Below are positions 1-12,054 of a stretch of 64,000 nt of DNA, piece after piece (the first letter of the stretch is position 1; every line of letters starts with the position of its first letter). The translations under genes and the position numbers were made by a program. The notes under the pieces were generated by a model. The model made no database searches, had not been told where the DNA came from, and saw only the letters and a program-made list of their open reading frames with translations. Source of the DNA: an uncultured virus (IMG/VR IMGVR_UViG_3300032321_001470) (taxonomy: Duplodnaviria > Heunggongvirae > Uroviricota > Caudoviricetes). Location: the IMG/VR virus record IMGVR_UViG_3300032321_001470; one strand, written 5' to 3'.

Positions 1-72
1 GAACCTAGGGTTAGTTAGTTAGTTATATTACGGACTGTCGGGATCGAACGAAGTGAGAGAGTCTCGATAGAC

Positions 73-108
73 CTCTCCCCTCACCGCGCTTGCTCGGTGA
101 GGGGAGAA
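73..108. terminator. GC-rich hairpin downstream of cassette gene A (putative terminator without a clear U-tract)
   Basis: TCTCCCCTCACCG...CGGTGAGGGGAGA inverted repeat; equivalent hairpins at ~597-632, ~1124-1158, ~1645-1680, ~2150-2186, ~2704-2739. Confidence 0.55.
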
Positions 109-160
109 GAGGAACCGCTCGCCTAGCAGCGACGAGCGGTTCGGAGAATCCAGACGGACG

Positions 161-403
161 CTACGCCTTCTGAATCGTCTCTAGATCAGCAGCCGCCTTG
201 GCGTACTGATCCTCAACGTTCCAGAGGACGCGTTGTGCTGTCTGAACGCTCGGATGCGAAGCAGGGCGGTTTCCCAAATAGGAAACACCCTGCTCAGCGA
301 TACGACGCGTCGCAGCAACAACATCCGCCTTCGCGCTTACAAGCAACGCGAGAGCATTGTCTCGGCGCTTGATCGCGACGGCAAGATTGTCATTCTTAGA
401 CAT
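161..403 (-). CDS. Cassette gene A, hypothetical helical protein (80 aa)
   Basis: ORF with AAAGGTAGGT RBS before the ATG at 403; fills the cassette slot. Confidence 0.8.
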   Translation of the reverse strand: MSKNDNLAVAIKRRDNALALLVSAKADVVAATRRIAEQGVSYLGNRPASHPSVQTAQRVLWNVEDQYAKAAADLETIQKA

Positions 404-456
404 CGTGAACACCTACCTTTCTGCGAGCACCGCTGCTATACGGGTGCCATCGCTCG

Positions 457-526
457 CAAGAAGAGAATGCCACGAGCAGCAGATTCATTTAGGTGCGCAT
501 GTTAAGCGCGGAGCGCTGACTAGAAC
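457..526 (-). promoter_or_regulatory. Cassette core element copy 1
   Basis: Minus strand CTAAAT-N17-CATTCT with TG extension; AGCGC-GGA-GCGCT hairpin at 505-517. Confidence 0.75.
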
Positions 527-660
527 CTAGGGTTAGTTAGTTAGTTATATTAGGGGTGTTTGGTCTCGAACGAAGTGAGAGAGACTAGGGATCTACCACC
601 CCCCTCACCGCATCGCTGCGGCAAGGGGGGTGATGACCGCCGAGAGATGGCGGTCAGGAT

Positions 661-933
661 CTAGAACGTGTGCTCGTCACCGTCCGTGTCGGTGAACCTA
701 TAGAGGCGGCGCTGATCCTCATCAGCAGCCGTGACGTCAACGTTCTCGTCCTGAATGTCGCACTCAGAAGAGAATTCGTCAGCGTGACCGTCCATGACCA
801 TCTGCTCGGCGATGTCCTTCGCATCAGCCGCTGTAGCCGCTGCTACAGGGATATAGAATTCAACGAGTCGTGCAACCACGACCACAAAAGGAAGCAACGA
901 GACCGGAGCTTCCTTCTTTTCTGTATCGTTCAT
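661..933 (-). CDS. Cassette gene B, small acidic hypothetical protein (90 aa)
   Basis: ORF with AGGAGG RBS; its V-A-A-T-A-A-D-A-K-D-I-A segment resembles DpnD/PcfM-type small phage proteins (weak). Confidence 0.8.
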   Translation of the reverse strand: MNDTEKKEAPVSLLPFVVVVARLVEFYIPVAAATAADAKDIAEQMVMDGHADEFSSECDIQDENVDVTAADEDQRRLYRFTDTDGDEHTF

Positions 934-980
934 AGAGCCTCCTATTTACTTCTACCACATGGGCGGCGTCTCTCTCGCCG

Positions 981-1050
981 CAAATGAATATTCTCACGAA
1001 CGTCGGATTCATTTAGGTTGGCTCGTTAGGCGCGGAGCGCCGAGTCGAAC
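981..1050 (-). promoter_or_regulatory. Cassette core element copy 2
   Basis: CTAAAT-N17-GAATAT; GGCGC-GGA-GCGCC hairpin at 1029-1041. Confidence 0.75.
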
Positions 1051-1163
1051 TTAGTTAGGACGTTAGTTATATTATGGGATCTCGAGTTAGAACTTGGCCA
1101 CAGAACGGGGTGCGACGAACTAACCCCCCTCCCACCGCGCGTCCGCGATGAGAGGGGGATGTT

Positions 1164-1460
1164 TTACGCGTCTACGCGTTCAATGATCCACGCGCCAGAA
1201 TCGTCCTGACGATTCGTGCGGCATTGGATCGGCGCGAGCGCATCGTTGATGATGCGCATGCCGCCCTGATCCAGACTATCGAGCCAGCCGTTCGGATTGG
1301 AATGACGGAGCGCCGTGATTGCGGCGGTGATCCGATCATTCACACGATCCTGAAGCTCGGTGAACTCGATGCTATTCTCCGTATCGGATAGCGACCTATC
1401 CTCTACGAACCAAACAATCCACTCGATTGGATTGTAGTGCTTGACGGTTGCGTCTACCAT
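1164..1460 (-). CDS. Cassette gene C, hypothetical protein (98 aa)
   Basis: ORF; GGAGG RBS precedes the ATG at 1460 (alternative start 1472). Confidence 0.8.
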   Translation of the reverse strand: MVDATVKHYNPIEWIVWFVEDRSLSDTENSIEFTELQDRVNDRITAAITALRHSNPNGWLDSLDQGGMRIINDALAPIQCRTNRQDDSGAWIIERVDA

Positions 1461-1504
1461 AACTACCTCCATACTGCTATACGATTATGCGGCGCGTCCG
1501 CCGC

Positions 1505-1574
1505 TGACCAGAGAGTGCCACACGCCAGAGTATTGTTTAGGTGGGCATGTTAGGCGCGGAGCGCCGCGTCGAAC
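1505..1574 (-). promoter_or_regulatory. Cassette core element copy 3
   Basis: CTAAAC-N17-CACTCT; GGCGC-GGA-GCGCC hairpin at 1553-1565. Confidence 0.75.
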
Positions 1575-1698
1575 TTAGTTACCCACTTACTTATATTACA
1601 TAGCTTCGAGATAGAACTCTGGCCTGTGTGTGGTAGCGAACGAACCACCCGCGAGCCGCATCGTTGCGACCCGCGGGTGGATTCTGTTGCGCTCGGGA

Positions 1699-1971
1699 CT
1701 AGTAGCGGTGGAGGTCCTCTGGACCGCCGAAGTGCTGGCACTTCCCTTTGAGGTACCCAGCCTTCATCGTGTTCTTGAACGTTGCGTATACGAGCATCAT
1801 GAACTTCTCACGATTGAGCGGTGAAAGATTCCACGCCGTTGCGCACTTGTGGGCTAGACCCAACGCTAGGTCTGCCGATGGATTCGTGAGGTCTATCGCG
1901 ATGTTGACGACCTCAGTAGCCTTGTGCTGAAACCAATCAGCGCTCTTGCGATTCCATGCCGTTGATGCCAT
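1699..1971 (-). CDS. Cassette gene D, hypothetical protein (90 aa)
   Basis: ORF with GGAAGG RBS; fills the cassette slot. Confidence 0.8.
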   Translation of the reverse strand: MASTAWNRKSADWFQHKATEVVNIAIDLTNPSADLALGLAHKCATAWNLSPLNREKFMMLVYATFKNTMKAGYLKGKCQHFGGPEDLHRY

Positions 1972-2008
1972 CTCATTACCTCCATACTATTGCGGTGCTG
2001 TTGCCCCG

Positions 2009-2078
2009 CACAGAGAGAATGCCACGAGCAGCAGATTCGTTTAGGTGGTGTTGTTAGACGCGGAGCGTCGCTTCGAAC
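2009..2078 (-). promoter_or_regulatory. Cassette core element copy 4
   Basis: CTAAAC-N17-CATTCT; GACGC-GGA-GCGTC hairpin at 2057-2069. Confidence 0.75.
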
Positions 2079-2195
2079 TTAGTTAGGTTGTTAGTTATAT
2101 TATAGGACTTCGATATCGAACCATGGCCATGGGGGGCGAGCCAACGAACCACCACCGCCCACCGCCGAAGCGGTGAACGATGGGGGTCGCGCGGA

Positions 2196-2519
2196 CTAGA
2201 CGACGCTACGGCGGACGCTCACGCCGATGAGCGTGCTCTCGTCAACGATCATCTGCCAGCGCAGGTAGGCGGGTAGATCCACCCACACACCCGTAGCGCG
2301 CAGAATCTTGGCAACGGGCGTGTATTCGCTCACGCGCCCAGCCTCATAGCCGCCGAGGCCCCACGAGAGCCGCGGAAGATCTTCCGTGCGCAGGTCTAGC
2401 GTGTACCACGCAGGAAGTTTCCCTTCCAACGATGGATACGTCAGCGTGAGAGAATCCACGCGGCAGTCGCGATAGCCGCCATAGACTACGGATACTACTG
2501 GTTCACCATACTCGCTCAT
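2196..2519 (-). CDS. Cassette gene E, hypothetical protein (107 aa)
   Basis: ORF with GGAGG RBS; fills the cassette slot. Confidence 0.8.
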   Translation of the reverse strand: MSEYGEPVVSVVYGGYRDCRVDSLTLTYPSLEGKLPAWYTLDLRTEDLPRLSWGLGGYEAGRVSEYTPVAKILRATGVWVDLPAYLRWQMIVDESTLIGVSVRRSVV

Positions 2520-2551
2520 AGACCCTCCAATAAACTACACGGCAAGTGCCG

Positions 2552-2621
2552 CACCAAGAGAATGCCACGGACGGGGTCAGTCATTATGTGGCCTCGATAG
2601 GCGCGGAGCGCCGTCTCGAAC
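2552..2621 (-). promoter_or_regulatory. Cassette core element copy 5
   Basis: CGTGG-CATTCT; GGCGC-GGA-GCGCC hairpin at 2600-2612; -35-like box diverged. Confidence 0.7.
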
Positions 2622-2746
2622 CAGTTAGGTTATTCGGGTTAGTTAGTTACTTATGTCGTGTGTGTGTGAGATCGAACGCGGCCGCAGGTGGGCGCGAACG
2701 AACCACCCGCCGCACCGCACGTCTGCGGTACAGCGGGTGAATCCGA

Positions 2747-3043
2747 CTAGCGCTGATTGCGCGTGACTGACCACGAGCGATGGGCGCGCTCAATGCGCTC
2801 GCGCTCTTGGCGTGCTGCTCGCCGCGCCCAGTAGACCCTATCCACAACAGGAACGATGACGAACTCCATGAGCGCGAAGAAAGCTGCCGTGGCAATGACG
2901 CCCATCGTGAGCGACATCACCGCGTAGGCGAACGCGTGCTGATCTAGCACGCTGAACGGCACGCTGCCGAAGATGAGAGCGGCAACGGTGCCTGCGCCTA
3001 CTGCGAAGATCGTTGCGCCGATTGCGTCTACTCGATCGTTCAT
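2747..3043 (-). CDS. Cassette gene F, small membrane protein (98 aa)
   Basis: GAAGGAG RBS; two hydrophobic segments followed by an Arg-rich tail. Confidence 0.8.
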   Translation of the reverse strand: MNDRVDAIGATIFAVGAGTVAALIFGSVPFSVLDQHAFAYAVMSLTMGVIATAAFFALMEFVIVPVVDRVYWARRAARQERERIERAHRSWSVTRNQR

Positions 3044-3100
3044 GATTGACTCCTTCTCGCATCGCGTCCGATGCGCCTATGGGCGGGAACGTCCCGCCGC

Positions 3101-3170
3101 TGAGGAGAGAGTGCCACGGGCGCGCCGTGTGTATCTGGTCGACTGATAGACCCGGAGGGTCGGGTCTAAC
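3101..3170 (-). promoter_or_regulatory. Cassette core element copy 6 (most diverged, right end of array)
   Basis: CGTGG-CACTCT; GACCC-GGA-GGGTC hairpin at 3149-3161; no TTAG repeats follow. Confidence 0.65.
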
Positions 3171-3296
3171 CCCTCTCGTGCGCCCTCGAGGCCCCCCCTC
3201 CCCCCTGCGCTAGGGACACCGGTAGTTTTTTCACAGTGTGGGCCCTGGCGGTTCGATAATCAGTCTCTCAGCGCCTTCCAAACCCCACAGAAAGGC

Positions 3297-3548
3297 CTAT
3301 TTGCGGCCCGTAGAGCCCTCTTTACCATCCAACCGCACCCGGAGCTCCCACGCAAGCTTGCAGACCGCTTCTAGCGGGTTTCTGCCCTTGGCGGTGATTC
3401 TGCGGCCCTTCTTGTCGTAGGCGACAGACATCCAGTCCCCATCCACAAACGCACGGTGGATTGCGGCAAGCATGTAGCCGTTCTGGTTGATCTCGCTCTC
3501 TGCCTCTTCGTGCGAGAGGGTGGCGTAGTCTAACCAGCGTGGGCTCAC
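3297..3548 (-). CDS. Hypothetical protein
   Basis: ORF coupled (GTGA overlap) to the upstream gene. Confidence 0.6.
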   Translation of the reverse strand: MSPRWLDYATLSHEEAESEINQNGYMLAAIHRAFVDGDWMSVAYDKKGRRITAKGRNPLEAVCKLAWELRVRLDGKEGSTGRK

Positions 3549-3853
3549 TTTGCACGGTCCTCGACAAGGTTCTTGATTGCTTCGCCGATGCTTGCGCCCG
3601 TTGCCCTACCAACCGTTACCCATGCGCCGCTTGGGGCAAGTGGCTCACCCTCTGGTCGGAGGTAATTCAGCATGGACAGCGGGGACATCTCTTCTTCGTT
3701 CCATCGGGATGATGCCGCAATCCACTCGGCCTGATCGTGGTTGTATTCAATTGACGACAGGCGCTCACCGCTCGGAAGCGTAGAGATGAGTTTCTTTAAG
3801 TTGCTGCTGATCTCGCTGGCAATAATGCCAAGATCTTTATTCTGCTCAACCAT
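3545..3853 (-). CDS. Hypothetical protein
   Basis: GGAGGG RBS before the ATG at 3853; tiles with neighbours. Confidence 0.65.
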   Translation of the reverse strand: MVEQNKDLGIIASEISSNLKKLISTLPSGERLSSIEYNHDQAEWIAASSRWNEEEMSPLSMLNYLRPEGEPLAPSGAWVTVGRATGASIGEAIKNLVEDRAK

Positions 3854-4649
3854 TTTTTCCCTCCAAGTCTTTAATATAATGGACTGCAAGCTTTGAGAAA
3901 TCCGCCTCATAGCCAAACGACCCGTAATGCGTCGTTTTTGCGTCGATCAGCACGTGGACGTCGACACCAGCGTTCCGCATATCTACGCAGAACCCGTAAT
4001 CTTCCCCCCACTGCTCTTTCGTCTCTTCGTTGGTCCAGAATCGGAAGAACTCCTTCAGGTCCTTTCCAAGGATGGTGTTCGTGTACCAGCGTTCCGGATA
4101 GGCGACGACAAATTTTTCGAGCGCCTTTCTGCTGATGACGATTGCGCCAGTACCGACGTGCGTGACTTTGAGGGTCATGTCTGGTTCTGGCTGCGTCTCC
4201 GAGTTGAGCGGGAGGAAGTTCATTCCGCCGATATAGGCAGGCAGGTTTGTGCCTGGGATCTCTGGGTACTTACGCAGGACCTCTGCGGCAAGCTCGAAAT
4301 TCGGCTGTCGCTTTGCGCATGGCAGGCCGACAATGTCCTTGCCGGTGACGATGGCGCGAAGGACGTCAATCCCTTGGAACTCGATGTCCGCATCAACCAT
4401 GAAGAGGTGCGTTGCGTCCGACTCAAGGAACTGCGCGCACACAATGTTGCGTGCGTCTGGTAGGACGGACGAGCCGTGGACAATCTTCCACTTAAACGGG
4501 ATATTTGCCTTGCCGCACTCTCGCTGTAGGGTCATCAGCCCCATGGTGTTGCGCGGGTGCATCTCGTGGGCGATTGGGCCACCAGCGTAGAGCGAAATCG
4601 GCGTCTGTTCCGGCTTTGCGTTCGGTGCGTACTTATTTGGCTTCGGCAT
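3846..4649 (-). CDS. GT-A fold glycosyltransferase-like protein
   Basis: ARN...THLFMVDADI (DxD), VGTGAIVISR and GEDYGFC motifs. Confidence 0.75.
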   Translation of the reverse strand: MPKPNKYAPNAKPEQTPISLYAGGPIAHEMHPRNTMGLMTLQRECGKANIPFKWKIVHGSSVLPDARNIVCAQFLESDATHLFMVDADIEFQGIDVLRAIVTGKDIVGLPCAKRQPNFELAAEVLRKYPEIPGTNLPAYIGGMNFLPLNSETQPEPDMTLKVTHVGTGAIVISRKALEKFVVAYPERWYTNTILGKDLKEFFRFWTNEETKEQWGEDYGFCVDMRNAGVDVHVLIDAKTTHYGSFGYEADFSKLAVHYIKDLEGKNG

Positions 4650-5343
4650 CGGTTGGTCCTTTCTTGGCCACAAAGAACGGCTCAAGATCTTGCGCCGTAA
4701 AATTGAGCGGGTTGTTTACCACGCCGTAGTTGTACAGGTCGTCGTCGGACGTGATCCACTTTGCCGCATCCTCAACATCCCACTTGCGCGTATTGACCTT
4801 ACGCTGGATCAGGTTTTCGTTCGGCTTCGTAGAGAACGATGGGTCATAGAGGTGGATACGGTTGTTTGGCTGAATGGCAAAGTTACCATCGTCGCGCAAA
4901 ATCATGTGACCGCACTTGTGCTGCCCTGGGTTCTGGCTATACCCGACATCCAGCGTGTTGTAGTCCGGAGCGCTCCAGTCCAGAGTGAACAGATACTTTC
5001 CGCCAATGTTGTTCTTGTGGCGATCAATGTACGAGACGCGCATGCCATCCAGCGCGTAAAACTTTGTCACGCTGATGTTGTGTGAAAATGAATTCCACAG
5101 CACAAGATCGTGGATGTCCACTTCTGGAACGCCTGGCTTTGCGCAGAAGGCACTAAGCGGGGCCCTCCACCAGATCCCACCATCTTCCATCATAAAGTGA
5201 AAGAGTGGGCTTCTTCCGGCAATAGAAGCGACGCCGAAGACGACAACTGGGAAGTATTTGTCGTGGCTGTCCTGCTGATCGCGCAAATAGTTGCCACGAA
5301 CGTAGCACTCAATCGATGGGATATTGGCGTTCAGTTCAGGCAT
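4633..5343 (-). CDS. Conserved phage protein of unknown function (LNANIP type)
   Basis: 236-aa ORF tiling the operon; LNANIP, YLFTLDW, HKCGH and GNFAIQPNNR motifs recalled from aquatic phages. Confidence 0.7.
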   Translation of the reverse strand: MPELNANIPSIECYVRGNYLRDQQDSHDKYFPVVVFGVASIAGRSPLFHFMMEDGGIWWRAPLSAFCAKPGVPEVDIHDLVLWNSFSHNISVTKFYALDGMRVSYIDRHKNNIGGKYLFTLDWSAPDYNTLDVGYSQNPGQHKCGHMILRDDGNFAIQPNNRIHLYDPSFSTKPNENLIQRKVNTRKWDVEDAAKWITSDDDLYNYGVVNNPLNFTAQDLEPFFVAKKGPTDAEAK

Positions 5344-5756
5344 TAGTCTCTCCTGTTAACGCTTCGGTCCACAGAGAACCCCTGCGGGTAGCGAATTCGT
5401 AGTTTCTTCTCGTTGGCAACTGCGACATCGCCAAGGTCTATCCCAGACACGGTGGCAATTTCGGCCACGTACCAGAGTATATCACCAAGCTCCTTGGTCA
5501 GATAGTCCTTGTCCACGGCGTGCCCGTGCCCAATAACCTTCTTGAGGTGGTCGATCAACTCGCCGGACTCACCCGCAAGCCCCATGGCTGCGATAGCGAT
5601 GCGTCCGTACTCTGGGGTGAGGTAGACCTCGCCGCGAGCAGTAATTGCCGCACCGCGCTGGTAATCAGAGAATCCCTGCACCCACGCCTTGTGGTCGCAG
5701 CAGTTGCCCTCAGAGCAACCGACACATCCGCAATTGCACTGTACTTCGCTAATCAT
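5343..5756 (-). CDS. mazG: MazG-like nucleoside triphosphate pyrophosphohydrolase with Cys-rich N-terminus
   Basis: GLAGESGELIDHLKK, KELGDILWY and NEKKLRIRYPQGF motifs. Confidence 0.88.
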   Translation of the reverse strand: MISEVQCNCGCVGCSEGNCCDHKAWVQGFSDYQRGAAITARGEVYLTPEYGRIAIAAMGLAGESGELIDHLKKVIGHGHAVDKDYLTKELGDILWYVAEIATVSGIDLGDVAVANEKKLRIRYPQGFSVDRSVNRRD

Positions 5757-6178
5757 TTCTTCTCCCTTTTTAGCGTCTTCGCTAACGCCTTGATTGGGTC
5801 CGGGTTAATGGGCCGAAGGAACTTCCTTTCGGCATCCTCGTCCTCTGACGGGGCGGAAATGAGGTTACCACGATTTGCGTAACCGTCCGCGATCTTCTTG
5901 TACTCGTCCAGCGTTGTCTTGCCCTCGTGCCAGCCGGAAATGAATCCGTCAAGCTTTGTAAGCAACACATCTGGATGCTGATAGCCCTGAATGACCGCAC
6001 GCACACCACCCGTGTACGTAATCACCCTAACAAGTTTCATGCCACCGTAGTCGCTCAGGGTTCGGAAGAATCCTGGCGCAGAAGCGTCTCTAAAGCCTTC
6101 GGGGAATCCCGCAAGGCGGTTAAGGAGATCAACCTTTCGATTGATCTCCATGACCACTAGGTCGTCGTGCTCGTACAT
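5753..6178 (-). CDS. Hypothetical protein
   Basis: Translationally coupled ORF. Confidence 0.65.
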   Translation of the reverse strand: MYEHDDLVVMEINRKVDLLNRLAGFPEGFRDASAPGFFRTLSDYGGMKLVRVITYTGGVRAVIQGYQHPDVLLTKLDGFISGWHEGKTTLDEYKKIADGYANRGNLISAPSEDEDAERKFLRPINPDPIKALAKTLKREKK

Positions 6179-6756
6179 CAGAACGGCAGGTCGCTGAGGC
6201 TGGCGGACTTATGTCCACAGCATGGCTTGTTCGGAATGAATTCCATCCCAAGTTTTTCGCGATCGGTCTTTACGAGTGCGTCAAGGCACTTCTGGCATGA
6301 GCACGCGCTGCACAGGTACGTCTTTCGCGCAAAAATTCTGTCCGTTTCCGCGGGGTCGCTCTTCAGAGAAGAACTCAGCGTCAGTAAGAGCGCTGCCTCC
6401 TTCGAAATGTAGTTATGCGACTTCGAGTAGTCGTCCCCCTCTAACGAGGAGTCAATGGCACGAACAGAGACGCGTCGCTGCTGGTCGAGCTTGGCGATGA
6501 TCTTCTCCAGAATCTTGATATGGTGCACAAGATCATCGATCTGGTAGCGAGCAGGCTTTCCCGACTCCGAAGTCCAGTAGGCAAGGTGCTCACAGCACTT
6601 GTCGCTGAGGCATCCGGCGCAGGCGCAGAGTTCGCACGCTGAAAGCGGCTCCTTCTTCACCTGTACTGGATAGGTGTCATCAACCATCTCGTCGTACTTC
6701 ATTACGGTAATAAACTCTCCGTCTGTCTGATCGACAACGGTCTTCTTCTTTGTCAT
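6178..6756 (-). CDS. Cys-rich hypothetical protein (two CxCxxC...CCxH clusters)
   Basis: Coupled ORF with Cys/His clusters. Confidence 0.7.
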   Translation of the reverse strand: MTKKKTVVDQTDGEFITVMKYDEMVDDTYPVQVKKEPLSACELCACAGCLSDKCCEHLAYWTSESGKPARYQIDDLVHHIKILEKIIAKLDQQRRVSVRAIDSSLEGDDYSKSHNYISKEAALLLTLSSSLKSDPAETDRIFARKTYLCSACSCQKCLDALVKTDREKLGMEFIPNKPCCGHKSASLSDLPF

Positions 6757-7130
6757 TACATCTCCTCTACATTCACTGTGGTTGCCTGAAAGGACGCGTA
6801 TACGGGCATCCCTGGCTTATAGAACGCACCTTCGACGTTATAGGAGACGTACTCGTCTGCCTCGCCGACATGGTCGCAATCCTCATGGGGGAGGCCGTTG
6901 TTGCACGCGCAGGTCCCCGAAAAGTCCTTAGCAAGACGCTCAACCATTTTGGTTCTGTCGTAGATTGCAACAACCAGTGGACCATCGCTCCCATGGAAGA
7001 TGTTCCCATGGCCAACCAGGCAGTCTTCCCAGCCGTCAGCGTAGATCACGCCTTCAATCTGCTCAATTGCAGGCTTATAGACCGTGGTCTCCATGATGGA
7101 GTCCACGATCTCATCGAGATTCTCTCTCAC
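6756..7130 (-). CDS. Conserved phage hypothetical protein
   Basis: ADGWEDCLVG...AIYDRTKM...EYVSYNVEGA pattern; coupled ORF. Confidence 0.7.
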   Translation of the reverse strand: MRENLDEIVDSIMETTVYKPAIEQIEGVIYADGWEDCLVGHGNIFHGSDGPLVVAIYDRTKMVERLAKDFSGTCACNNGLPHEDCDHVGEADEYVSYNVEGAFYKPGMPVYASFQATTVNVEEM

Positions 7131-7423
7131 TTGATTCTCCTTATCTTTCCGATGGAGTTCTCACTCATCGGGCTACTTACATGCCAGGCATCTAAGATCC
7201 AGGCCTTGTAGAACTGAGGGTAGTACATGGGGACGAACTTTGTCAAACGGAGTTGCTGGTAGCGGCGGTTGGGTAGCAAGCGTATGTGGTGTACAGCATC
7301 ACTAGCCGCTACCTCAATTTTCCCGCAAAAAATTTTTCCCGAGTGATCTGAATACAATGCAGAAAACGGGAGTATCTGGACAAGATCGTCTTTGATGGCG
7401 ATAACCATGCGATTCTGCTTCAT
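7127..7423 (-). CDS. Hypothetical protein
   Basis: ORF overlapping the next gene by 4 nt; start uncertain. Confidence 0.5.
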   Translation of the reverse strand: MKQNRMVIAIKDDLVQILPFSALYSDHSGKIFCGKIEVAASDAVHHIRLLPNRRYQQLRLTKFVPMYYPQFYKAWILDAWHVSSPMSENSIGKIRRIK

Positions 7424-7451
7424 CTTGGGCCCCCGCGCAGGTTTACTGGTT

Positions 7452-7490
7452 CCCGTACCCAAGAGCCACTAGGCAACTCTTGGGTACGGG
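7452..7490. terminator. 14-bp perfect hairpin (terminator or processing site)
   Basis: CCCGTACCCAAGAG-N11-CTCTTGGGTACGGG. Confidence 0.55.
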
Positions 7491-7512
7491 TCTCATAAAG
7501 AGAGGTAAACCG

Positions 7513-7614
7513 TTATCGATTAACGATCCTGAACCAGATTGTCCACAGGGCCAGCGTGAGCGTTGATCCAACCACAACGGCGCCCACGTAACTCAGGAAC
7601 GTCCCGAGGTCCAC
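7513..7614 (-). CDS. 33-aa single-pass membrane peptide (not in ORF track)
   Basis: MDLGTFLSYVGAVVVGSTLTLALWTIWFRIVNR; GTG start 2 nt after the ssb stop. Confidence 0.5.
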   Translation of the reverse strand: MDLGTFLSYVGAVVVGSTLTLALWTIWFRIVNR

Positions 7615-7616
7615 GA

Positions 7617-7994
7617 TTAGAATGGGATGTCGGAGAAGTCTGGCTCCTCCGCGGCTGCGGCCGTCGTTCCGCCAGCGCCCTTGCCCTTTGCGAGCAAATC
7701 AAACGTCTGCGCGGTGATCTGAATCGAAGCCTTCTGCTCACCGTTGCGGGTGGTGAAGGTCTTGACGCTTGGTGAGCCAGCAACGCAGACAAGGTCGCCC
7801 TTGTCGAGAAGGCGAACCGCCAACTCTGCCTGCTTCTCCCACACGGAAACGTCGTACCAGTTGGTGGTCTCTTCGCCTCCGCGCTTATTCTTTACGGCAA
7901 CGCTGAATGAGCTTACCTGCTTGCCGTTCTTGGTTGCGCGCAACTCTGGCTTCGCACCAAGTCGCCCTGTGATTTCTAGTCGCTCCTTAGCCAT
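7617..7994 (-). CDS. ssb: Single-stranded DNA-binding protein
   Basis: GRLGAKPELR, FSVAV, TNWYDVSVW, LDKGDLVCVAG; acidic DIPF C-terminus. Confidence 0.95.
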   Translation of the reverse strand: MAKERLEITGRLGAKPELRATKNGKQVSSFSVAVKNKRGGEETTNWYDVSVWEKQAELAVRLLDKGDLVCVAGSPSVKTFTTRNGEQKASIQITAQTFDLLAKGKGAGGTTAAAAEEPDFSDIPF

Positions 7995-8372
7995 TTACAA
8001 CTCCTGACTGAGAACAAGTAGGACACTTTCCTCTTTATTCCCAAACTCTAGTTCCCACACACGTGGAATGAACCAGCGATCGTTCACATGAAGCCCCGTC
8101 GCGACCGCATCGAGCGTGAGCTTCAGCAAATTGTCTGCGTCCATCGGGCGATTGAGATGCGCCCAGATGTCAATGACAATCCGCTTCTTATCCACCGGAA
8201 TGAAATCCGGCCTGCCAAGTATAGCAGCCTCTGTCCTTTTTGTCACTTCCTCCTTCCACGCTTTTGCTTCCCTTGTCATGTAGATGATTCTGTTGGCTAC
8301 GCGATATGCGCGGTTCCAAGACGGGGGCCTCCCTGGGAGGTAAATCTCAAGAGGGCTGGTCCAGCCTTCCAA
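7995..8372 (-). CDS. rusA: RusA-like Holliday junction resolvase
   Basis: PPSWNRAYR, DADNLLKLTLDA and NDRW motifs; start uncertain. Confidence 0.82.
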   Translation of the reverse strand: MEGWTSPLEIYLPGRPPSWNRAYRVANRIIYMTREAKAWKEEVTKRTEAAILGRPDFIPVDKKRIVIDIWAHLNRPMDADNLLKLTLDAVATGLHVNDRWFIPRVWELEFGNKEESVLLVLSQEL

Positions 8373-8988: not shown

Positions 8989-9674
8989 TAACCCTCCAAA
9001 TGCGCATCGCGCGTGCTTGCCGTTTGGCGCGCTGGGGTCATCTTACGCTTCTGCCCAACCGCTGTCAAATAGGAGATCGGGTCGCCCTTGAGGTCACGAA
9101 GCGCCGCGTCGCATACTGCCGCCATGAGCGCAGGGATGCCGCCAGGAAAATCTTTCATCAGCTTTGAAATTCTGCTGTAGTCATTCCTTTGCGGAACAAC
9201 ACCAAGCATTGCCCCGAAGAACTCACCAAGCCGACCCTGCGTGTTGGGTCCGGCAACAACATACGAAAGCCATTCCTTCAGACTACGAGTTACAGGCGTT
9301 TCGTGATTATCCCTAAGGCCGAGTCGCTCTAATCTAGACCTTCCTGCTTCGGCAAGTTTTTCGCGCGCCGCCGACATCCCGTCGGACGGCTCCTGCCACT
9401 CGTCCCAGTCATGGACAACGAGCCCGTCAAGGAGCCCAACTCTTCGGAAGTGCGGAAGGTACTTTGCATTCTGGGTTCCGATAAGTGCCTCAACGTGCTG
9501 ATCGGACTCGAACACGCCGTTGGTCTCGGACGCCGCGCACAGAAGTGTAATCCACGCCCAGCGAGCGTTGTTATCTGGTAGCCGCCAAAGCTTTGCGTGG
9601 CGCGGAAGGTCGCTGTAGCAGCGCCAATAGACGCGCACATCGACCATCTCCTCGATAGGGATGATCTTCTCCAT
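8988..9674 (-). CDS. Putative replication initiator protein
   Basis: Directly upstream of the DnaC-like loader; N-terminal HAKL...WITLLCAA...VHDWDEWQ pattern typical of phage replisome organisers. Confidence 0.65.
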   Translation of the reverse strand: MEKIIPIEEMVDVRVYWRCYSDLPRHAKLWRLPDNNARWAWITLLCAASETNGVFESDQHVEALIGTQNAKYLPHFRRVGLLDGLVVHDWDEWQEPSDGMSAAREKLAEAGRSRLERLGLRDNHETPVTRSLKEWLSYVVAGPNTQGRLGEFFGAMLGVVPQRNDYSRISKLMKDFPGGIPALMAAVCDAALRDLKGDPISYLTAVGQKRKMTPARQTASTRDAHLEG

Positions 9675-9686
9675 TTTTACTCCTCT

Positions 9687-10559
9687 TTACCAATCGTGGT
9701 CTGGCCAGAGATCCTTCTTTAGGGTTGGAACCTTATCATAAAGTTTCTTGCGCGTGTCTGGAAGCTTCTGCGGGTGACTCTCCCAGTCGTTGCAGAGCAC
9801 TTTGAATTCGCAGGTTGCGTGAGCGAATGCCGTCGGGTTTGGATAGATCGCACCCTTCTCAATCGCATCCACAAAGGCTCGGGCGCCAATGTACATCTTA
9901 TCGATATCGCTCTGCGTTCTTGTTGTCATTCTTCGGTCAACGTTAGGCCCCTTTGCGGAGTTGCTAATGATATTAAACGTAACCGTCGGGTCGTGGGAGT
10001 AATTCTCACGAACAGCAAGGGCATAGGCAGTCGCCTGAATGTCTCCGTGCTCTCGCTCAGCCTCCCATTTCCTTTGGGCGGTCTTGTGCTCAACAACATC
10101 AAGAGTCTTTGTGAGCATGTCAACTTGCGTCTTCAGTTTGATTGGGAGCTTGCCGAGCTTGGAATGCTTAATCTCAGAGAACATTGTGTGCTCAACGGCC
10201 TTAGCCTCCCAGTCATCCCCGGCATAGATTGCGGCGCGGAGCATCTCTTCGCCGTTAAACCCCTCACTAAGGAGGTCTCGATCCTTCTCCCCCGTCCAGT
10301 CAACCTTTGACGACTCAAGCGCCCAGGTCTTTCGGTAGTAATCAAAAACCTTCGTAAGGTCTCCGTGTTTCTTGCCTCCAGTAAGTGGCTCGTACCACTT
10401 CTGGAGCCCAGCATGAACGGAGGTACCCAAAGCAAAGTACGGCGTTGTTCTTTCTGTCCACATGCCCATGCGGTATTTGTACCACCACCTGAGCGGGCAG
10501 GAAAGAAACTCGCGCAACTCGCTTACGCTAACGTGCTCTGGATGCCTCTCTGGGATCAT
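9687..10559 (-). CDS. PD-(D/E)xK (RecB/Cas4-like) exonuclease
   Basis: SVS...CPLRWWY, GTSVH, VD...EHKT, QATAY, C-terminal Cys. Confidence 0.85.
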   Translation of the reverse strand: MIPERHPEHVSVSELREFLSCPLRWWYKYRMGMWTERTTPYFALGTSVHAGLQKWYEPLTGGKKHGDLTKVFDYYRKTWALESSKVDWTGEKDRDLLSEGFNGEEMLRAAIYAGDDWEAKAVEHTMFSEIKHSKLGKLPIKLKTQVDMLTKTLDVVEHKTAQRKWEAEREHGDIQATAYALAVRENYSHDPTVTFNIISNSAKGPNVDRRMTTRTQSDIDKMYIGARAFVDAIEKGAIYPNPTAFAHATCEFKVLCNDWESHPQKLPDTRKKLYDKVPTLKKDLWPDHDW

Positions 10560-11158
10560 CCAGCGATCTCAGCGCGACGGGTCTTGAACTTATTCACAAG
10601 GTACTGGCGAGAAACATCGTCAATCTCAACGCCGTCGGCTGAAGAGTTGTTGATCTTCTGCCCGATTGCATTGAGTTGCTCCACGGTGGTTGCCGCGTCA
10701 AAATCATCAACGTACTTCTGGACGTGCGGCGGGAAAACGGCATCCTCAAAAATCTCTGCCGCCGCCTTGGCGATCGTCTTAGAGGTGCCGCCCTTCGACT
10801 TGATTTCATCATCTGAAGCGATTCGCTTCGATGGGAGCCCAGCCATCACAAGGGCTCGCCCTACTGCCGAAGTCTCGCAGTTCTCAATCTCTGAGCCGCG
10901 AGTGTATGGAGTCGCCCCTGGGATCTGCATGGCGCTATGGCCAATGCCTGCTGGACGATCGTCCACGAAGCCAAGCCTTTCGTCAAGCCCGTTGTCTTCC
11001 TTGACGCCGCGATATGCACGCGCCTCAATAACTACGCGCTTTTCGTTATGCTCAATAATGCGCGTCTCAATGCGGGCGTTTGGATATGCCTCGTACCACG
11101 CGCGGATGCGCTCTGCGACATCTACGTAATCCTTAAGTGCGCTCTTATCAAATGCCAT
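10556..11158 (-). CDS. Single-strand annealing recombinase (Rad52/Sak-like)
   Basis: DYVDVAERI and ENCETSAVGRAL motifs; paired with the exonuclease. Confidence 0.7.
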   Translation of the reverse strand: MAFDKSALKDYVDVAERIRAWYEAYPNARIETRIIEHNEKRVVIEARAYRGVKEDNGLDERLGFVDDRPAGIGHSAMQIPGATPYTRGSEIENCETSAVGRALVMAGLPSKRIASDDEIKSKGGTSKTIAKAAAEIFEDAVFPPHVQKYVDDFDAATTVEQLNAIGQKINNSSADGVEIDDVSRQYLVNKFKTRRAEIAG

Positions 11159-11429
11159 TTTCGCTCTCCTTATTGCGTGTGAACTGATCGAGATCTTCGA
11201 ACAGTCTCTTTTCCTCTACACCAAGAAATTCAGCAATGCGCTTTCGCATTGGCCCGCTGATTGGGGCCTGCCCATACTGAACTTGGTTGAGATAACCATA
11301 CGACACTCCAAGGTGTCGTGCAAGAAACCGGCGCTTAATTCCGGTCTCTTCTAGCAGTCGCCAAACCTGAGCCGTCTTCTTTCGCTGTATTAGGCGCTGC
11401 TCTGCAAAATTGGGACCAGTTTGCTTCAT
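11148..11429 (-). CDS. XRE/Cro-type HTH regulator
   Basis: LARHLGVSYGYLNQV...IAEFLGV. Confidence 0.85.
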   Translation of the reverse strand: MKQTGPNFAEQRLIQRKKTAQVWRLLEETGIKRRFLARHLGVSYGYLNQVQYGQAPISGPMRKRIAEFLGVEEKRLFEDLDQFTRNKESENGI

Positions 11430-11435
11430 CTGATA

Positions 11436-11678
11436 CTAATCCTTTACTAGGTCACTAGGGGCAGTTAGCCATGCTTCAAGAGCGTAGTTTATGCCCATGT
11501 GATATGCAGAACGGTCTTCATATGAGAGACTATTCTCCATAGCCGCTGCGGCGTTTGCCGCCTCAAACCCGAGAAGAACTTTTGGTCTTGCGCCCAGGTC
11601 GTCGCTTAGGATTCTTTCCAGTTGAAGGCTGAACCTCGATCTCCCAAGGTCTGCCATTTCCACTTCCGTCATCTGCAT
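11436..11678 (-). CDS. Hypothetical protein
   Basis: GGAAGG RBS; overlaps the upstream ORF. Confidence 0.5.
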   Translation of the reverse strand: MQMTEVEMADLGRSRFSLQLERILSDDLGARPKVLLGFEAANAAAAMENSLSYEDRSAYHMGINYALEAWLTAPSDLVKD

Positions 11679-11883: not shown

Positions 11884-11898
11884 GATTCCCTCCTTCTG

Positions 11899-11933: not shown

Positions 11934-12054
11934 GCCGCGCTCGGGAAGGCAGCACAGGTGGTACTTTTGATTTCCTCTTTTTACCATAGGGCCAAGGCCC
12001 TTGGAAATCAGGCTCGCCTGCTTAGATGGGCAGATCCGGCTTGAGCATGGCTGG

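What the first reader, a model, noticed from the sequence alone, without database searches (positions are those of the whole stretch)
501..3161. Covarying 5-bp-stem/GGA-triloop hairpin fixed 54 nt upstream of every predicted cassette start, resembling N4 virion-RNAP promoter hairpins
Seen: the plus-strand stems are AGCGC/GCGCT, GGCGC/GCGCC (three copies), GACGC/GCGTC and GACCC/GGGTC, all closed C-GGA-G and preceded by Y-G-W-T-A. Every substitution is compensated, which suggests selection on pairing rather than on sequence alone. Loop centres (511, 1035, 1559, 2063, 2606, 3155) are each exactly 54 nt from the predicted +1. Known: C-GNA-G triloops form unusually stable DNA mini-hairpins, and N4 vRNAP promoters are template-strand GC-GGA-GC hairpins. 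Here too the hairpin is on the template strand upstream of the gene, and the base at the N4-equivalent +1 is a pyrimidine in all six copies. Inference: an extruded DNA hairpin acting as an activator, polymerase or recombinase/nickase recognition site. No vRNAP or HUH enzyme is recognisable in this window.
Basis: partly seen in the sequence, partly recalled or inferred. Interest (0 to 1): 0.8.

Follow-up and report, generated by a model that had tools for sequence, protein, structure and literature searches.

The report
Template-strand GGA mini-hairpin in phage promoter cassettes
Each small early gene in this uncultured long-tailed phage is preceded by the same tiny DNA hairpin that phage N4 uses as a promoter, yet no N4-type polymerase is found, so it probably helps an ordinary promoter in an unknown way.

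Summary
Six 5-bp-stem/GGA-loop hairpins lie on the + strand at 511, 1035, 1559, 2063, 2606 and 3155. Each sits in a repeated regulatory module upstream of a small minus-strand ORF.

Relatives (83-85 kb IMG/VR phage contigs and a more distant clade) carry 4-14 such modules each. Across 52 distinct near-clade copies the stem covaries (three pair types, no G-U). The loop, the closing C-G and a GTTCNA box are fixed.

Not every change is compensated. 11 of 52 near-clade and 3 of 18 distant copies carry mismatches. All are purine-purine or G-T on the GGA strand, which is the template strand of the cassette gene. This favours a template-strand DNA hairpin over an RNA or a plain duplex operator.

The core heptamer GCGGAGC equals that of N4 promoter P2. 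However, the phage looks like a siphovirus. Its 3708-aa ORF is tape-measure-like, and no RNAP, HUH enzyme or integrase was detected in the window or in complete relatives.

A -10-like hexamer (xAxTxT) sits at a fixed +42..+47, followed by a 5' leader hairpin, an SD and the ORF. My best reading is an extruded hairpin serving as the upstream element of host-RNAP early promoters in shuffling PeSL-like cassettes. Direct N4-like initiation remains possible.

The parts
505..517 (+). mini-hairpin 1, AGCGC GGA GCGCT (GGA strand = template strand of the ORF at 161-412)
1029..1041 (+). mini-hairpin 2, GGCGC GGA GCGCC
1553..1565 (+). mini-hairpin 3, GGCGC GGA GCGCC
2057..2069 (+). mini-hairpin 4, GACGC GGA GCGTC
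2600..2612 (+). mini-hairpin 5, GGCGC GGA GCGCC
3149..3161 (+). mini-hairpin 6, GACCC GGA GGGTC. This is the first module of the array in the direction of transcription. It lacks the AT-rich upstream half of the module.
413..660 (-). Regulatory module 1, read on the - strand from 660 down to 413. Order: long GC hairpin (terminator-like, no U run), TTCGA-type palindrome, TAATATAAC box, (TAAC)n, GTTCTA box (521-526), mini-hairpin, C/R at +10/+11 (501/500), CTAAAT box, -10-like CATTCT (464-469), inferred +1 near 457, leader hairpin, SD.
934..1163 (-). regulatory module 2 (same order of parts; -10-like hexamer at 988-993)
1473..1698 (-). regulatory module 3 (-10-like hexamer at 1512-1517)
1972..2195 (-). 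regulatory module 4 (-10-like hexamer at 2016-2021)
2520..2746 (-). regulatory module 5 (-10-like hexamer at 2559-2564)
3044..3296 (-). Regulatory module 6, first of the array. It keeps GTTAGA, the hairpin and the -10-like hexamer (3108-3113), but its upstream half is different and G-rich.
1..50 (-). Upstream half of a seventh module, cut by the window edge. The array continues beyond position 1.
161..412 (-). cassette ORF (83 aa as listed; an SD-proximal ATG at about 403); no family hit
661..933 (-). cassette ORF, 90 aa, no family hit
1164..1472 (-). cassette ORF (102 aa as listed; SD-proximal ATG at about 1460), no family hit
1699..1971 (-). cassette ORF, 90 aa, no family hit
2196..2519 (-). 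cassette ORF, 107 aa, no family hit
2747..3043 (-). cassette ORF, 98 aa, hydrophobic, no family hit

Best explanation
Each ~520-bp unit is an autonomous early transcription cassette. Its parts, in order, are a promoter module, a leader hairpin at the 5' end, a strong SD, a 71-114-aa ORFan and a long GC hairpin.

The mini-hairpin (GTTCNA box, 3-4 nt, a 5-6 bp covarying stem, an invariant C-GGA-G tip, then an invariant C and a purine at +10/+11) is the upstream element of that promoter. I read it as a DNA structure formed by the template strand. It would be extruded from negatively supercoiled phage DNA, helped by the adjacent easily melted (TAAC)n/TAATAT tract.

In this reading a protein recognises it by shape plus the GGA loop and switches on, or co-regulates, all cassette promoters together. 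The polymerase is the host holoenzyme. It would use the -10-like xAxTxT hexamer at +42..+47 and start about 54 nt from the loop.

Shown: the hairpin, its covariation, its strand bias, its fixed geometry and the absence of any detectable phage RNAP.
Inferred: extrusion, the binding protein, the direction of the effect (activation) and the start site.

Because the modules are 70-90% alike, they also serve as sites of homologous exchange that shuffles the cassettes.
For: 1. Structure. Counts are on the 52 distinct near-clade copies of the 54 aligned; the five core pairs are numbered outward from the loop.
- Pair 5: GC 41, CG 7, AU 4, none unpaired.
- Pair 4: GC 26, CG 9, AU 6, other 11.
- Pair 3: CG 45, other 7.
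- Pair 2: GC 48, CG 4.
- Pair 1: CG 52.
- There are no G-U pairs. The covariation score is 0.263 against 0.073 in shuffles (0 of 500 shuffles reach it). Slid controls score 0.104 or less.
- A more distant clade has 6-bp stems of quite different sequence but the same TCC/GGA loop in 18 of 18 modules.

2. Strand.
- All 18 mismatched cells in 11 near-clade copies are Y.Y on the coding strand, which is G.A, A.G or G.G on the GGA strand. Seven of these copies carry a tandem GA/AG.
- The 3 mismatched distant copies are A.C or C.A on the coding strand, which is G.T on the GGA strand.
- DNA nearest-neighbour energies favour the GGA strand in 49 of 54 copies, with 4 equal and 1 reversed.
- In contrast, the flanking leader hairpin has 11.5% G-U in the coding sense and 4.7% on the other strand.

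3. Position.
- The hairpin lies between the terminator-like hairpin of one cassette and the predicted start of the next, so it falls in untranscribed spacer.
- Insertions and deletions occur only upstream of the GTTCGA box. From -15 to about +58 the 54 copies align without gaps, except one copy shifted by 1 nt.

4. Sigma-type promoter.
- The A at +43 and the T at +47 carry at least 1.8 of 2 bits. As recalled, these are the two positions most conserved in -10 elements.
- A leader hairpin with G.U pairs begins at the predicted +1 in both clades.
- 53 of 53 modules examined are followed by an SD and an ORF.

5. No phage polymerase.
- PHROG and Pfam scans of the window ORFs and of the 17 kb seen only in the closest complete relative found none.
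- PF00940 is not found in three complete relatives.
- N4 mini-vRNAP finds nothing at E <= 10 in five relatives.
- The giant ORF family against N4 vRNAP gives an hhalign probability of 2.6%.

6. Physical plausibility. GCGNAGC DNA mini-hairpins are unusually stable, far more so than their RNA counterparts. N4 hairpins extrude at physiological supercoiling (passages read in PMC13037366 and PMC4496689).
Against: - No 5' ends are available, so the start site is unproven.
- The consensus promoter scan found no sigma-70-type site at any module. It found 1 site in 4 kb, elsewhere, against 1.7 expected.
- The -35-like box is weak: CTAAAY or CTGACT.
- In the distant clade the -10-like GATGAT lies 4 nt further from the loop. 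The CTAAA box keeps its distance to the loop, so the spacing between the box and the hexamer is not preserved.
- The block of high conservation ends exactly at +11 with a C then a purine. That is where an N4-type start would be.
- No candidate hairpin-binding protein was identified.
- The mismatch events are few, about 6-7 independent ones, so the strand bias has a chance probability of roughly 0.01-0.02, not less.
- The compensated changes could partly come from template-switch correction of quasi-palindromes rather than from selection.
Confidence: 0.45

Rival explanations
1. The hairpin is itself the promoter, as in N4. A polymerase that has not been recognised binds the template-strand hairpin and starts at the conserved purine 11 nt from the loop centre. 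That polymerase could be phage-encoded and possibly delivered with the DNA, or it could be a host enzyme recruited by a hairpin-binding factor. The transcript would carry an 80-100-nt leader.
For: - The strand, the loop, the closing pair and the heptamer GCGGAGC are the same as in N4 P2. All three N4 hairpins in the record have GC-GRA-GC.
- The stem rules match those described for N4: inner pairs fixed, outer pairs free if paired (PMC4496689 passages).
- The conserved block ends at C(+10) and purine(+11) in 54 of 54 near-clade and 18 of 18 distant copies, although the stems differ by one pair.
- LUZ7 shows that a small heterodimeric RNAP can also use hairpin promoters (PMC9163698 passages).
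- The N-terminal 1700 residues of the 3708-aa ejected-type protein have no recognisable family.
Against: - No RNAP of any type was detected.
- The gene order around the giant ORF is a siphovirus tail module, and its C-terminal half is tape-measure-like.
- The N-terminal 1200 residues fold as helices only, at low confidence (pLDDT 42.9).
- The near-invariant A and T of a -10-like hexamer, and a leader hairpin placed just after it, would have no role in this reading.
- The distance from loop to start codon is 66-144 nt here. In N4 it is 21-58 nt.
Confidence: 0.2
2. The 13-bp dyad is an ordinary duplex operator for a dimeric phage regulator, for example the HTH_3 protein at 11148-11429. This regulator would repress or activate all cassettes. 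The compensated changes would come from gene conversion between modules and from template-switch repair of quasi-palindromes.
For: - The dyad sits at a constant distance from a promoter-like site.
- Further TTCGA palindromes lie in each module.
- HTH proteins and an ImmA/IrrE-like peptidase are encoded.
- Repeated operators upstream of many early promoters are known in other phages (recalled: phiC31 conserved inverted repeats, L5 stoperators).
Against: - A duplex site gives no reason for strict complementarity. At the outer pair, 0 of 52 copies are unpaired, where independent assortment would give about 18.
- It also gives no reason for all mismatches being benign on one strand only.
- The asymmetric loop is invariant while the half-sites vary.
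Confidence: 0.12
3. The hairpin with its GTTCGA flank is a REP-like element taken from, or imitating, the host's repeats. It would serve DNA-level housekeeping or mobility rather than initiation. Possible roles are a site for gyrase or a nucleoid protein between strongly transcribed units, a target of a host REP-associated transposase, or a recombination hot spot that moves cassettes.
For: - Hyphomicrobiales genomes carry a repeat of the form GGTTCGAGAC, then a 5-6 bp covarying stem with a TNC loop (GNA on the other strand), then TCCTCACCATGAGG. There are 6, 19 and 14 exact-pattern copies in the three genomes searched, often in inverted pairs.
- One variant of this repeat is identical to the phage module over 24 nt.
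- Cassette order differs between relatives: cassettes E and F are swapped between the window and G003, and the order differs again in G002.
- The phage encodes a RusA-like resolvase and a RecE-like exonuclease.
Against: - My search pattern already fixed 19 of the 24 shared bases.
- The host is unknown, and no close relative of the phage portal was found in the 201 genomes of that order sampled.
- The phage loop is always GGA, whereas the bacterial repeat accepts any GNA.
- No RAYT, HUH enzyme or integrase is found in the phage.
- The fixed spacing to the promoter-like part points to a role in expression.
- 250-nt modules at 70-90% identity suffice for homologous exchange without a special site.
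Confidence: 0.15
4. The element works as an RNA hairpin in read-through transcripts or in transcripts from an upstream promoter. It could be, for example, a boxB-like antitermination signal or a processing or stability signal.
For: - A TAATAT box lies upstream of the hairpin in all modules except the first of each array.
- As recalled, 5-bp GC stems with small loops serve as boxB in lambdoid phages.
Against: - There is no G-U among 242 paired cells.
- In the coding sense all mismatches would be C.U, U.C, C.C or A.C.
- The first module of each array lacks the TAATAT box but keeps the hairpin.
- There is no Rfam match.
- The review read states that GNA mini-hairpins are much less stable as RNA (PMC13037366 passages).
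Confidence: 0.04

Closest known systems
N4-type virion-RNAP early promoters (Schitoviridae: N4, LUZ7)
   Same: - Hairpin on the template strand, with a 5-7 bp stem and a 3-nt loop whose central base is a purine.
- Identical GC-rich heptamer GCGGAGC.
- Outer stem bases are free provided they pair.
- A purine start position would lie 11 nt from the loop centre.
- The hairpin lies upstream of small early genes.
   Different: - No vRNAP or RNAPII gene. The phage is tape-measure-bearing and siphovirus-like.
- The portal is at most 27% identical to any isolate in the phage collection.
- 4-14 copies per genome or fetched locus, against 3 in N4 and 9 early starts in LUZ7.
- An extra GTTCNA box lies upstream.
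- A -10-like hexamer and a leader hairpin lie downstream.
- The loop is 66-144 nt from the start codon, against 21-58 nt in N4.
PeSL cassettes (promoter-early stem-loop) of T4-like phages (PMC2839356, PMC4122927)
   Same: - A repeated composite motif of promoter plus stem-loops flanks single ORFans in a plastic region.
- An AT-rich tract lies upstream.
- Relatives differ by shuffling, gain and loss of ORF-plus-motif units.
   Different: - This is not a T4-like phage.
- The module is about 250 nt and much more elaborate.
- Its small hairpin covaries, has a fixed loop and shows strand bias. The PeSL stem-loop is described as a terminator.
- Mini-circles were not tested.
REP/REPIN-type bacterial repeats, here the GGTTCGAGAC...TCACCATGAGG repeat seen in Bradyrhizobium, Rhodopseudomonas and Beijerinckiaceae genomes
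   Same: - The tip is a C-GNA-G mini-hairpin with a covarying GC stem.
- The same TCGAAC flank lies on the same side.
- The repeat is extragenic.
   Different: - The bacterial repeat is a longer imperfect palindrome that accepts any GNA loop. It is scattered over chromosomes, often in inverted pairs.
- The phage element is tied to a promoter-like module, always has GGA, and always has one orientation relative to the gene.
Mini-hairpin priming signals (G4-type origin, ssiA) as reviewed in PMC13037366
   Same: A GCGNAGC-type DNA mini-hairpin on single-stranded template serves as a landmark for an RNA-synthesising enzyme.
   Different: - Those act on single-stranded replicons, as single sites.
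- Here 6-14 copies cluster in 3-8 kb of a double-stranded phage genome, one per gene.

Membership tests
N4-type vRNAP promoter | Hairpin on the template strand, 5-7 bp stem, 3-nt loop with a central purine | tested here: met
   GGA is on the template strand in 54 of 54 near-clade and 18 of 18 distant copies.
N4-type vRNAP promoter | GC-rich heptamer GC-GRA-GC centred on the loop | tested here: met
   GCGGAGC is present in the five downstream window copies. Copy 6, the other first-of-array copies, one further near-clade copy (G003 34420) and all 18 distant copies have CCGGAGG. The N4 record has GC-GGA-GC twice and GC-GAA-GC once.
N4-type vRNAP promoter | Variable stem positions are free provided pairing is kept | tested here: met
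   32 cells changed on both sides, none changed on one side only. 18 unpaired cells, all purine-purine on the GGA strand.
N4-type vRNAP promoter | Transcription starts 11 nt (N4) or 13-14 nt (LUZ7) from the loop centre | not testable with these tools
Only a conserved C then purine at +10/+11 is seen.
N4-type vRNAP promoter | The genome encodes a giant virion RNAP with a T7-like polymerase domain | tested here: not met
   The 3708-aa ORF matches tape-measure families only. A fold model of residues 1-1200 was too poor to search.
N4-type vRNAP promoter | Promoters lie at the genome end that enters first | not testable with these tools
   One relative contig breaks inside the tape-measure gene, so the terminal repeats reported for it look like circular-assembly overlaps. 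The physical ends are unknown.
PeSL regulatory cassettes | Repeated intergenic motif made of a sigma-70-like early promoter plus stem-loop | tested here: inconclusive
   A -10-like hexamer with near-invariant A and T, and stem-loops, are present. The consensus scan does not call a promoter there.
PeSL regulatory cassettes | Motifs flank single small ORFans | tested here: met
   53 of 53 modules are followed by a 71-114-aa ORF. The six window ORFs have no PHROG hit. One has only a Pfam hit below the curated cut-off.
PeSL regulatory cassettes | Close relatives differ by shuffling, gain or loss of ORF-plus-motif units | tested here: met
   the order is D-E-F in the window, D-F-E in G003 and E-F-D in G002. 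There are 22 ORF families over five sources.
PeSL regulatory cassettes | Host phage is a T4-like myovirus | tested here: not met
   siphovirus-type tail module, and no close isolate.
REP/REPIN elements | Many dispersed extragenic copies in a bacterial chromosome, with a cognate RAYT | tested here: not met
   In the phage the copies lie only in the array. No Y1 transposase was found. Likeness to a bacterial repeat is seen.
Integron attC cassettes | Integron integrase; promoterless cassettes; attC with R''/L''/L'/R' boxes | tested here: not met
   No integrase. Each cassette has its own promoter-like module and SD. GTTCGAC does not fit the GTTRRRY motif (recalled).
Sigma-54 promoter | GG and GC separated by exactly 10 bp (TGGCAC-N5-TTGC) | tested here: not met
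   In the window copies TGGCAY...TGC has 12 bp between GG and GC. The G002 and G004 copies lack the GG.

The most novel reading that the evidence does not exclude
This would be a hairpin-promoter system outside the N4 family. The template-strand GGA mini-hairpin would be the true early promoter of a widespread uncultured siphovirus lineage, with initiation at the conserved purine 11 nt from the loop. The polymerase activity would be one that no profile recognises. One candidate is a domain hidden in the unassigned N-terminal ~1700 residues of the 3708-aa tape-measure-like ejected protein. Another is a host enzyme recruited by a hairpin-binding factor. The -10-like promoter would then serve a later phase.
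Probability: 0.15. Interest if true: 0.9.

Novelty: new variant of a known kind. Interest (0 to 1): 0.62.

Why it matters
Among phage promoters, I know of functional DNA mini-hairpins only in N4-like phages, where a dedicated injected polymerase reads them. Here the same heptamer, on the same strand, recurs 4-14 times per genome or fetched locus in an unrelated phage lineage with no detectable polymerase of its own. It is tied at fixed distance to what looks like a host-type promoter.

There are two possibilities. Host transcription may be steered by a supercoil-extruded hairpin, which would give a testable case of DNA structure acting as a natural cis-regulator. Alternatively, a hairpin-reading polymerase exists that current profiles miss.

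The arrays also show that PeSL-like shuffling of regulatory cassettes is not confined to T4-like phages. They also offer a set of natural stem variants, including strand-informative mismatches, ready for reporter tests.

Tried and rejected
- Sigma-54 reading of TGGCAY...TGC: the spacing is wrong, and the GG is missing in relatives.
- Known RNA families: none. Rfam at E <= 1 on positions 1-8000 gave two miRNA chance hits. The bacterial repeat also has no Rfam family.
- Consensus scans: no sigma-70 site and no intrinsic terminator at the modules.
- Giant ORF as vRNAP: BLASTP against N4 gp50 gave a best E of 0.45. The PDB sequence search gave 0 hits. The hhalign probability was 2.6%.
- ESM Atlas on the giant ORF: the C-terminal half resembles tape-measure clusters at 0.93, and the N-terminal half is unrecognised.
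- AlphaFold on residues 1-1200 with 4 sequences: pLDDT 42.9, helices only. No fold search was made on so poor a model.
- DxDGD motif scan: no large ORF carries it.
- Phage collection: no DNA match to positions 1-3300. The portal is at most 27% identical to any isolate.
- Record G001, the nearest held record, lacks the region.
- Gapped pattern scan of viral contigs returned only 6 loci, from contigs already known.
- Metagenome scan with a 16-mer returned mostly single chance hits in GC-rich DNA. Only two short loci held modules.
- Genome scan returned no phage arrays, but did reveal the bacterial repeat.
- Host inference from portal relatives in the order of G007: only weak partial hits, in 10 of 201 genomes.
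- The hairpin at 20393 lies inside a CDS without module flanks and is treated as chance.

Full report
WHAT IS THERE. The window starts inside an array of ~520-bp units. All genes in positions 1-14.7 kb run on the minus strand. Each unit has a small ORF with a strong Shine-Dalgarno sequence and a ~230-250-nt intergenic module repeated from unit to unit.

A direct search for perfect 5-bp stems around GGA finds seven sites on the + strand. The seventh is at 20393. One further site lies on the - strand. Simulated sequence gives about 2 such hairpins per 64 kb on both strands (mean 2.03, maximum 7 in 200 simulations). The site at 20393 lies in a coding sequence and has none of the module flanks, so it and the minus-strand site are the chance background. 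The six in the array are not.

WHAT KIND OF GENOME.
- The window holds a portal, a prohead protease fused to a ferritin-like domain and an SU10-type capsid protein.
- It also holds head-tail adaptors, a tail module, tail fibres and a large terminase.
- The replication and recombination set comprises an initiator, a DnaC-like loader, SSB, RusA and a RecE-like exonuclease.
- Two ParB-like proteins are also encoded.
- The 3708-aa ORF (28140-39266, minus strand) sits where a tape measure sits. It matches tape-measure families (PF20155 E 8e-10; phrog_9959 E 1.6e-14). Its C-terminal half resembles tape-measure clusters in the ESM Atlas.
- No isolate is close. There is no DNA match in the phage collection, and the portal is at most 27% identical.
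- Relatives are uncultured IMG/VR contigs of 82.9-85.2 kb (G002, G003, G004), rated complete. G003 is colinear with the window at 73-94% DNA identity. The window lacks about 17 kb of that genome.

THE FAMILY OF MODULES. A profile of the module finds 48 hits:
- 7 in the window, one of them cut by the window edge at 1-50;
- 15 in G002, one of them only the upstream half;
- 12 in G003;
- 14 in G004.
A fragment (G005) adds 7 copies, and two short metagenome loci add one each.

Read in the direction of the gene, the module has this order:
1. a long GC-rich hairpin after the preceding ORF (stems of 12-18 pairs, with G.U pairs, no U run);
2. a TTCGA-type palindrome;
3. a TAATATAAC or TAAGATAAC box;
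4. a (TAAC)n tract of variable length;
5. a GTTCGA box;
6. the mini-hairpin;
7. an invariant C and a purine at +10/+11 from the loop centre;
8. a CTAAAY or CTGACT box;
9. seventeen bases further on, a hexamer xAxTxT at +42..+47;
10. a small GC leader hairpin, then the SD and the start codon.

All 53 modules examined in five sources are followed by an ORF of 71-114 aa that starts 66-144 nt after the loop. The first module of each array keeps the part from GTTAGA onward but lacks the AT-rich upstream half. The hairpin therefore belongs to the promoter-proximal half of the module.

IS THE HAIRPIN A STRUCTURE? I aligned 54 copies, of which 52 are distinct. One truncated copy out of the 55 located was left out. 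Counting outward from the loop:
- pair 1: C-G in 52;
- pair 2: G-C in 48, C-G in 4;
- pair 3: C-G in 45, unpaired in 7;
- pair 4: G-C in 26, C-G in 9, A-T in 6, unpaired in 11;
- pair 5: G-C in 41, C-G in 7, A-T in 4, never unpaired.
There are 32 cells changed on both sides and none changed on one side only. The covariation score is 0.263 against 0.073 in shuffles (0 of 500 shuffles reach it) and at most 0.104 when partners are slid.

A more distant clade was reached through the neighbouring 279-aa protein at 59-61% identity. It has arrays of the same kind with 6-bp stems of other sequences, such as GGCCCC, GACGCC, GGCACC, GGCTCC, CTCGCC, CACGCC, CGCGCC and GCACCC. The loop is again TCC on the coding strand, GGA on the template strand, in 18 of 18 modules. 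From the 23 sites that a loose definition returned, I dropped 5 that had neither a stem nor the module flanks.

The loop, the closing pair, the GTTCNA box and the C/purine at +10/+11 are what stay fixed across both clades.

UNCOMPENSATED CHANGES AND WHAT THEY SAY.
- Eleven of the 52 distinct near-clade copies have unpaired cells. Four carry one mismatch. Seven carry a tandem mismatch in the form GCGAGC GGA GCGAGC, written on the GGA strand.
- All 18 unpaired cells are pyrimidine-pyrimidine on the coding strand. On the GGA strand they are therefore G.A, A.G or G.G.
- The three mismatched copies of the distant clade are A.C or C.A on the coding strand, that is G.T wobbles on the GGA strand.
- DNA nearest-neighbour energies make the GGA-strand hairpin the more stable one in 49 of 54 copies, most clearly in the mismatched ones: -7.2 against -3.1, and -4.5 against -2.2 kcal/mol.
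- By contrast, the leader hairpin shows 11.5% G-U pairs in the coding sense against 4.7% on the other strand. The mini-hairpin shows none among 242 paired cells.

The mismatches trace to perhaps six or seven independent events, so the bias is suggestive (roughly p 0.01-0.02), not overwhelming. Taken together, the pattern is what a hairpin folding on the template strand as DNA would leave. It is not what an RNA hairpin in the mRNA sense, or a duplex operator, would leave.

The review of mini-hairpin DNA (passages read in PMC13037366) states that GCGNAGC forms an exceptionally stable DNA hairpin with a sheared G-A pair. It also says this hairpin is far less stable as RNA, and that N4 mini-vRNAP binds a GCGGAGC mini-hairpin.

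COMPARISON WITH N4, FROM THE RECORD ITSELF. In EF056009 the template strand carries three such hairpins:
- GTTGC GAA GCAAC, centre 96;
- AAGAAGC GGA GCTTCTT, centre 565;
- AAGCTGC GGA GCAGCTT, centre 4554.
They lie 58, 21 and 49 nt before the starts of gp1, gp2 and RNAP1. The N4 review (passages read in PMC4496689) gives the following rules. The region -17 to +1 is conserved and contains a GC-rich heptamer centred at -11. Conserved stem bases are contacted by the enzyme, while variable ones need only pair. Extrusion is driven by gyrase and stabilised by SSB. The start lies at a fixed distance from the loop.

The present element shares the strand, the loop, the heptamer and the stem rule. Its block of high conservation ends exactly at the position that would be +1.

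It differs in four ways. It has a further conserved box upstream. It lies much further from the start codon. It occurs in many more copies. Above all, it lacks the enzyme.

THE SEARCH FOR A POLYMERASE OR OTHER READER.
- PHROG and Pfam scans covered essentially all ORFs of the window and of the 17 kb present only in G003. They show no RNAP, sigma factor, HUH or Y1 enzyme, or integrase.
- PF00940 gave nothing in six-frame searches of three complete relatives. The tool's control genomes do not contain this family either, so this search alone is weak.
- N4 mini-vRNAP gave no match at E <= 10 in five relatives.
- The giant ORF gave no PDB sequence hit and no significant BLASTP match to N4 gp50. Its seven-member family aligned to N4 gp50 with hhalign probability 2.6%.
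- Its first 1700 residues remain unassigned. A four-sequence AlphaFold model of residues 1-1200 is almost entirely helical but of low confidence (pLDDT 42.9). It was not searched against structures, and this point stays open.
- Candidate regulators exist: an HTH_3 protein at 11148-11429, a further weak HTH hit, and an ImmA/IrrE-like peptidase. None can be tied to the hairpin.

WHERE DOES TRANSCRIPTION START? Two readings remain.

For a host-type promoter:
- The A at +43 and the T at +47 are the best-conserved positions downstream of +11, with at least 1.8 of 2 bits. As recalled, these correspond to the two key bases of a -10 element.
- Many window and G003 copies have TG one base upstream of the hexamer.
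- A leader hairpin begins at the predicted +1 in both clades.
- Indels are tolerated upstream of the GTTCGA box but not between the hairpin and the hexamer.

Against it:
- The consensus scanner calls no promoter at the modules.
- The -35-like box is weak.
- In the distant clade the hexamer (GATGAT) is 4 nt further from the loop, while the CTAAA box keeps its place.

For an N4-like start, the evidence is the conserved C/purine at +10/+11 and the end of the conserved block there.

I put the host-promoter reading first, with the hairpin as its upstream, structure-dependent element. I give the direct hairpin-promoter reading about one chance in five.

CASSETTE BEHAVIOUR. The 53 cassette ORFs fall into 22 families (BLASTP 1e-5). 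None of the six window ORFs has a PHROG hit or a Pfam hit above the curated cut-off. Order differs between relatives: D-E-F in the window, D-F-E in G003 and E-F-D in G002. The DNA alignments overlap within the module core around the hairpins.

This is the pattern described for the promoter-early stem-loop (PeSL) cassettes of T4-like phages (passages read in PMC2839356; listing only for PMC4122927). In those, recombination between repeated promoter-plus-stem-loop motifs shuffles ORFans. The present phage is not T4-like, and its modules are longer and more elaborate.

AN UNEXPECTED PARALLEL IN BACTERIA. About a quarter of the 80 loci fetched belong to one repeat of Bradyrhizobium, Rhodopseudomonas, Beijerinckiaceae and their kin.

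In three such genomes the repeat has the form GGTTCGAGAC, then a 5-6 bp covarying stem with a TNC loop, then TCCTCACCATGAGG. It occurs in 6, 19 and 14 exact-pattern copies, often as inverted pairs. Its tip is a C-GNA-G mini-hairpin on the same strand relative to the TCGAAC flank as in the phage. One variant equals the phage module over 24 nt.

My pattern fixed 19 of those 24 bases, and the phage's host is unknown; one search gave no host clue. This is therefore a lead, not a finding. The repeat has no Rfam family, and its motifs were not found in any relevant paper in one full-text search.

VERDICT. The element is conserved across two clades, with extensive stem covariation and an invariant GGA loop.

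The N4 analogy is apt for the DNA structure but fails as a membership claim, because the defining polymerase is not found. The most likely role is a supercoil-dependent, structure-specific upstream element of host-RNAP early promoters in a shuffling cassette array.

This is a new variant of known kinds: the N4 hairpin and PeSL cassettes. It has a real but minority chance of being a second, unrecognised hairpin-promoter system.

Noticed in passing
window 28140-39266 (-): A 3708-aa tape-measure-like ORF, among the longest I know of for such a protein. Only residues ~1750-1900 match tape-measure profiles. The C-terminal half is tape-measure-like by language-model features, and the N-terminal ~1700 residues are unassigned. 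Seven homologues of 2360-3772 aa exist, all carrying PF20155 only.
   Followed up: partly
window 531-546, 1053-1074, 2081-2096, 2636-2653 and equivalents: A (TTAG)n / (TAAC)n tract of variable length upstream of each hairpin. It places stop codons in all three frames on both strands, and its copy number differs between modules (microsatellite-like). It may be an easily melted flank that aids extrusion.
   Followed up: partly
L117 (G002) and L129 (G004) modules, just upstream of the TAAGAT box: A second small covarying hairpin in the G002/G004 modules: ATCGAAC TTY GTTCGAT alternates with ATAGAAC TTC GTTCTAT (a C-G pair exchanged for A-T). The window and G003 copies instead carry TTCGA-N2-TCGAA-type palindromes or short GGCC-centred palindromes at that place.
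   Followed up: no
L263, L292-L295, L301, L306, L309, L311, L314, L315, L325, L327, L328, L330, L331, L337; G007-G009: Hyphomicrobiales genomes carry a REP/REPIN-like repeat: GGTTCGAGAC, a covarying stem with a GNA-type triloop, then TCCTCACCATGAGG. It often occurs in inverted pairs about 80 bp apart. It has no Rfam family, and the one full-text search made turned up no relevant paper.
   Followed up: partly
window 1-3300 versus L123 (G003) 9100-15100: Cassette order differs between close relatives, and the arrays hold 12-14 full units in complete genomes. This looks like modular shuffling of the PeSL type.
   Followed up: partly
window 15623-17452 (+): A 609-aa ORF combines a prohead serine protease domain (PF04586) with a ferritin-like domain (PF00210), immediately before the capsid gene. 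It may be a capsid-targeted ferritin-like cargo.
   Followed up: no
window 44350-48884 (-): Four tandem paralogous ORFs of 370-379 aa, next to a 547-aa protein with a tail-fibre repeat. These look like a family of alternative fibre or receptor-binding proteins.
   Followed up: no
L123 15400-20000 and L124 1-5000 (G003, the part not in the window): The region following the array in the closest relative encodes DUF932, a RadC-like JAB domain, DUF3846, DUF7249 and a DUF1281_C-like protein. The window adds two ParB-like nuclease-type proteins. As recalled, such a set is typical of plasmid leading regions and early anti-defence islands.
   Followed up: no
window 3190-3215 and the first module of each relative's array: A G-rich tract (GCAGGGGGGAGGGGGGGCC on the coding strand) replaces the AT-rich half of the module upstream of the first hairpin of each array.
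   Followed up: no
window 597-632, 1126-1160, 1655-1680 and equivalents: After each cassette ORF there is a long GC-rich hairpin (12-18 pairs, with G.U pairs in the mRNA sense) not followed by a U run. The terminator scan does not call these hairpins, so if they terminate transcription they do so without a canonical U tract.
   Followed up: partly
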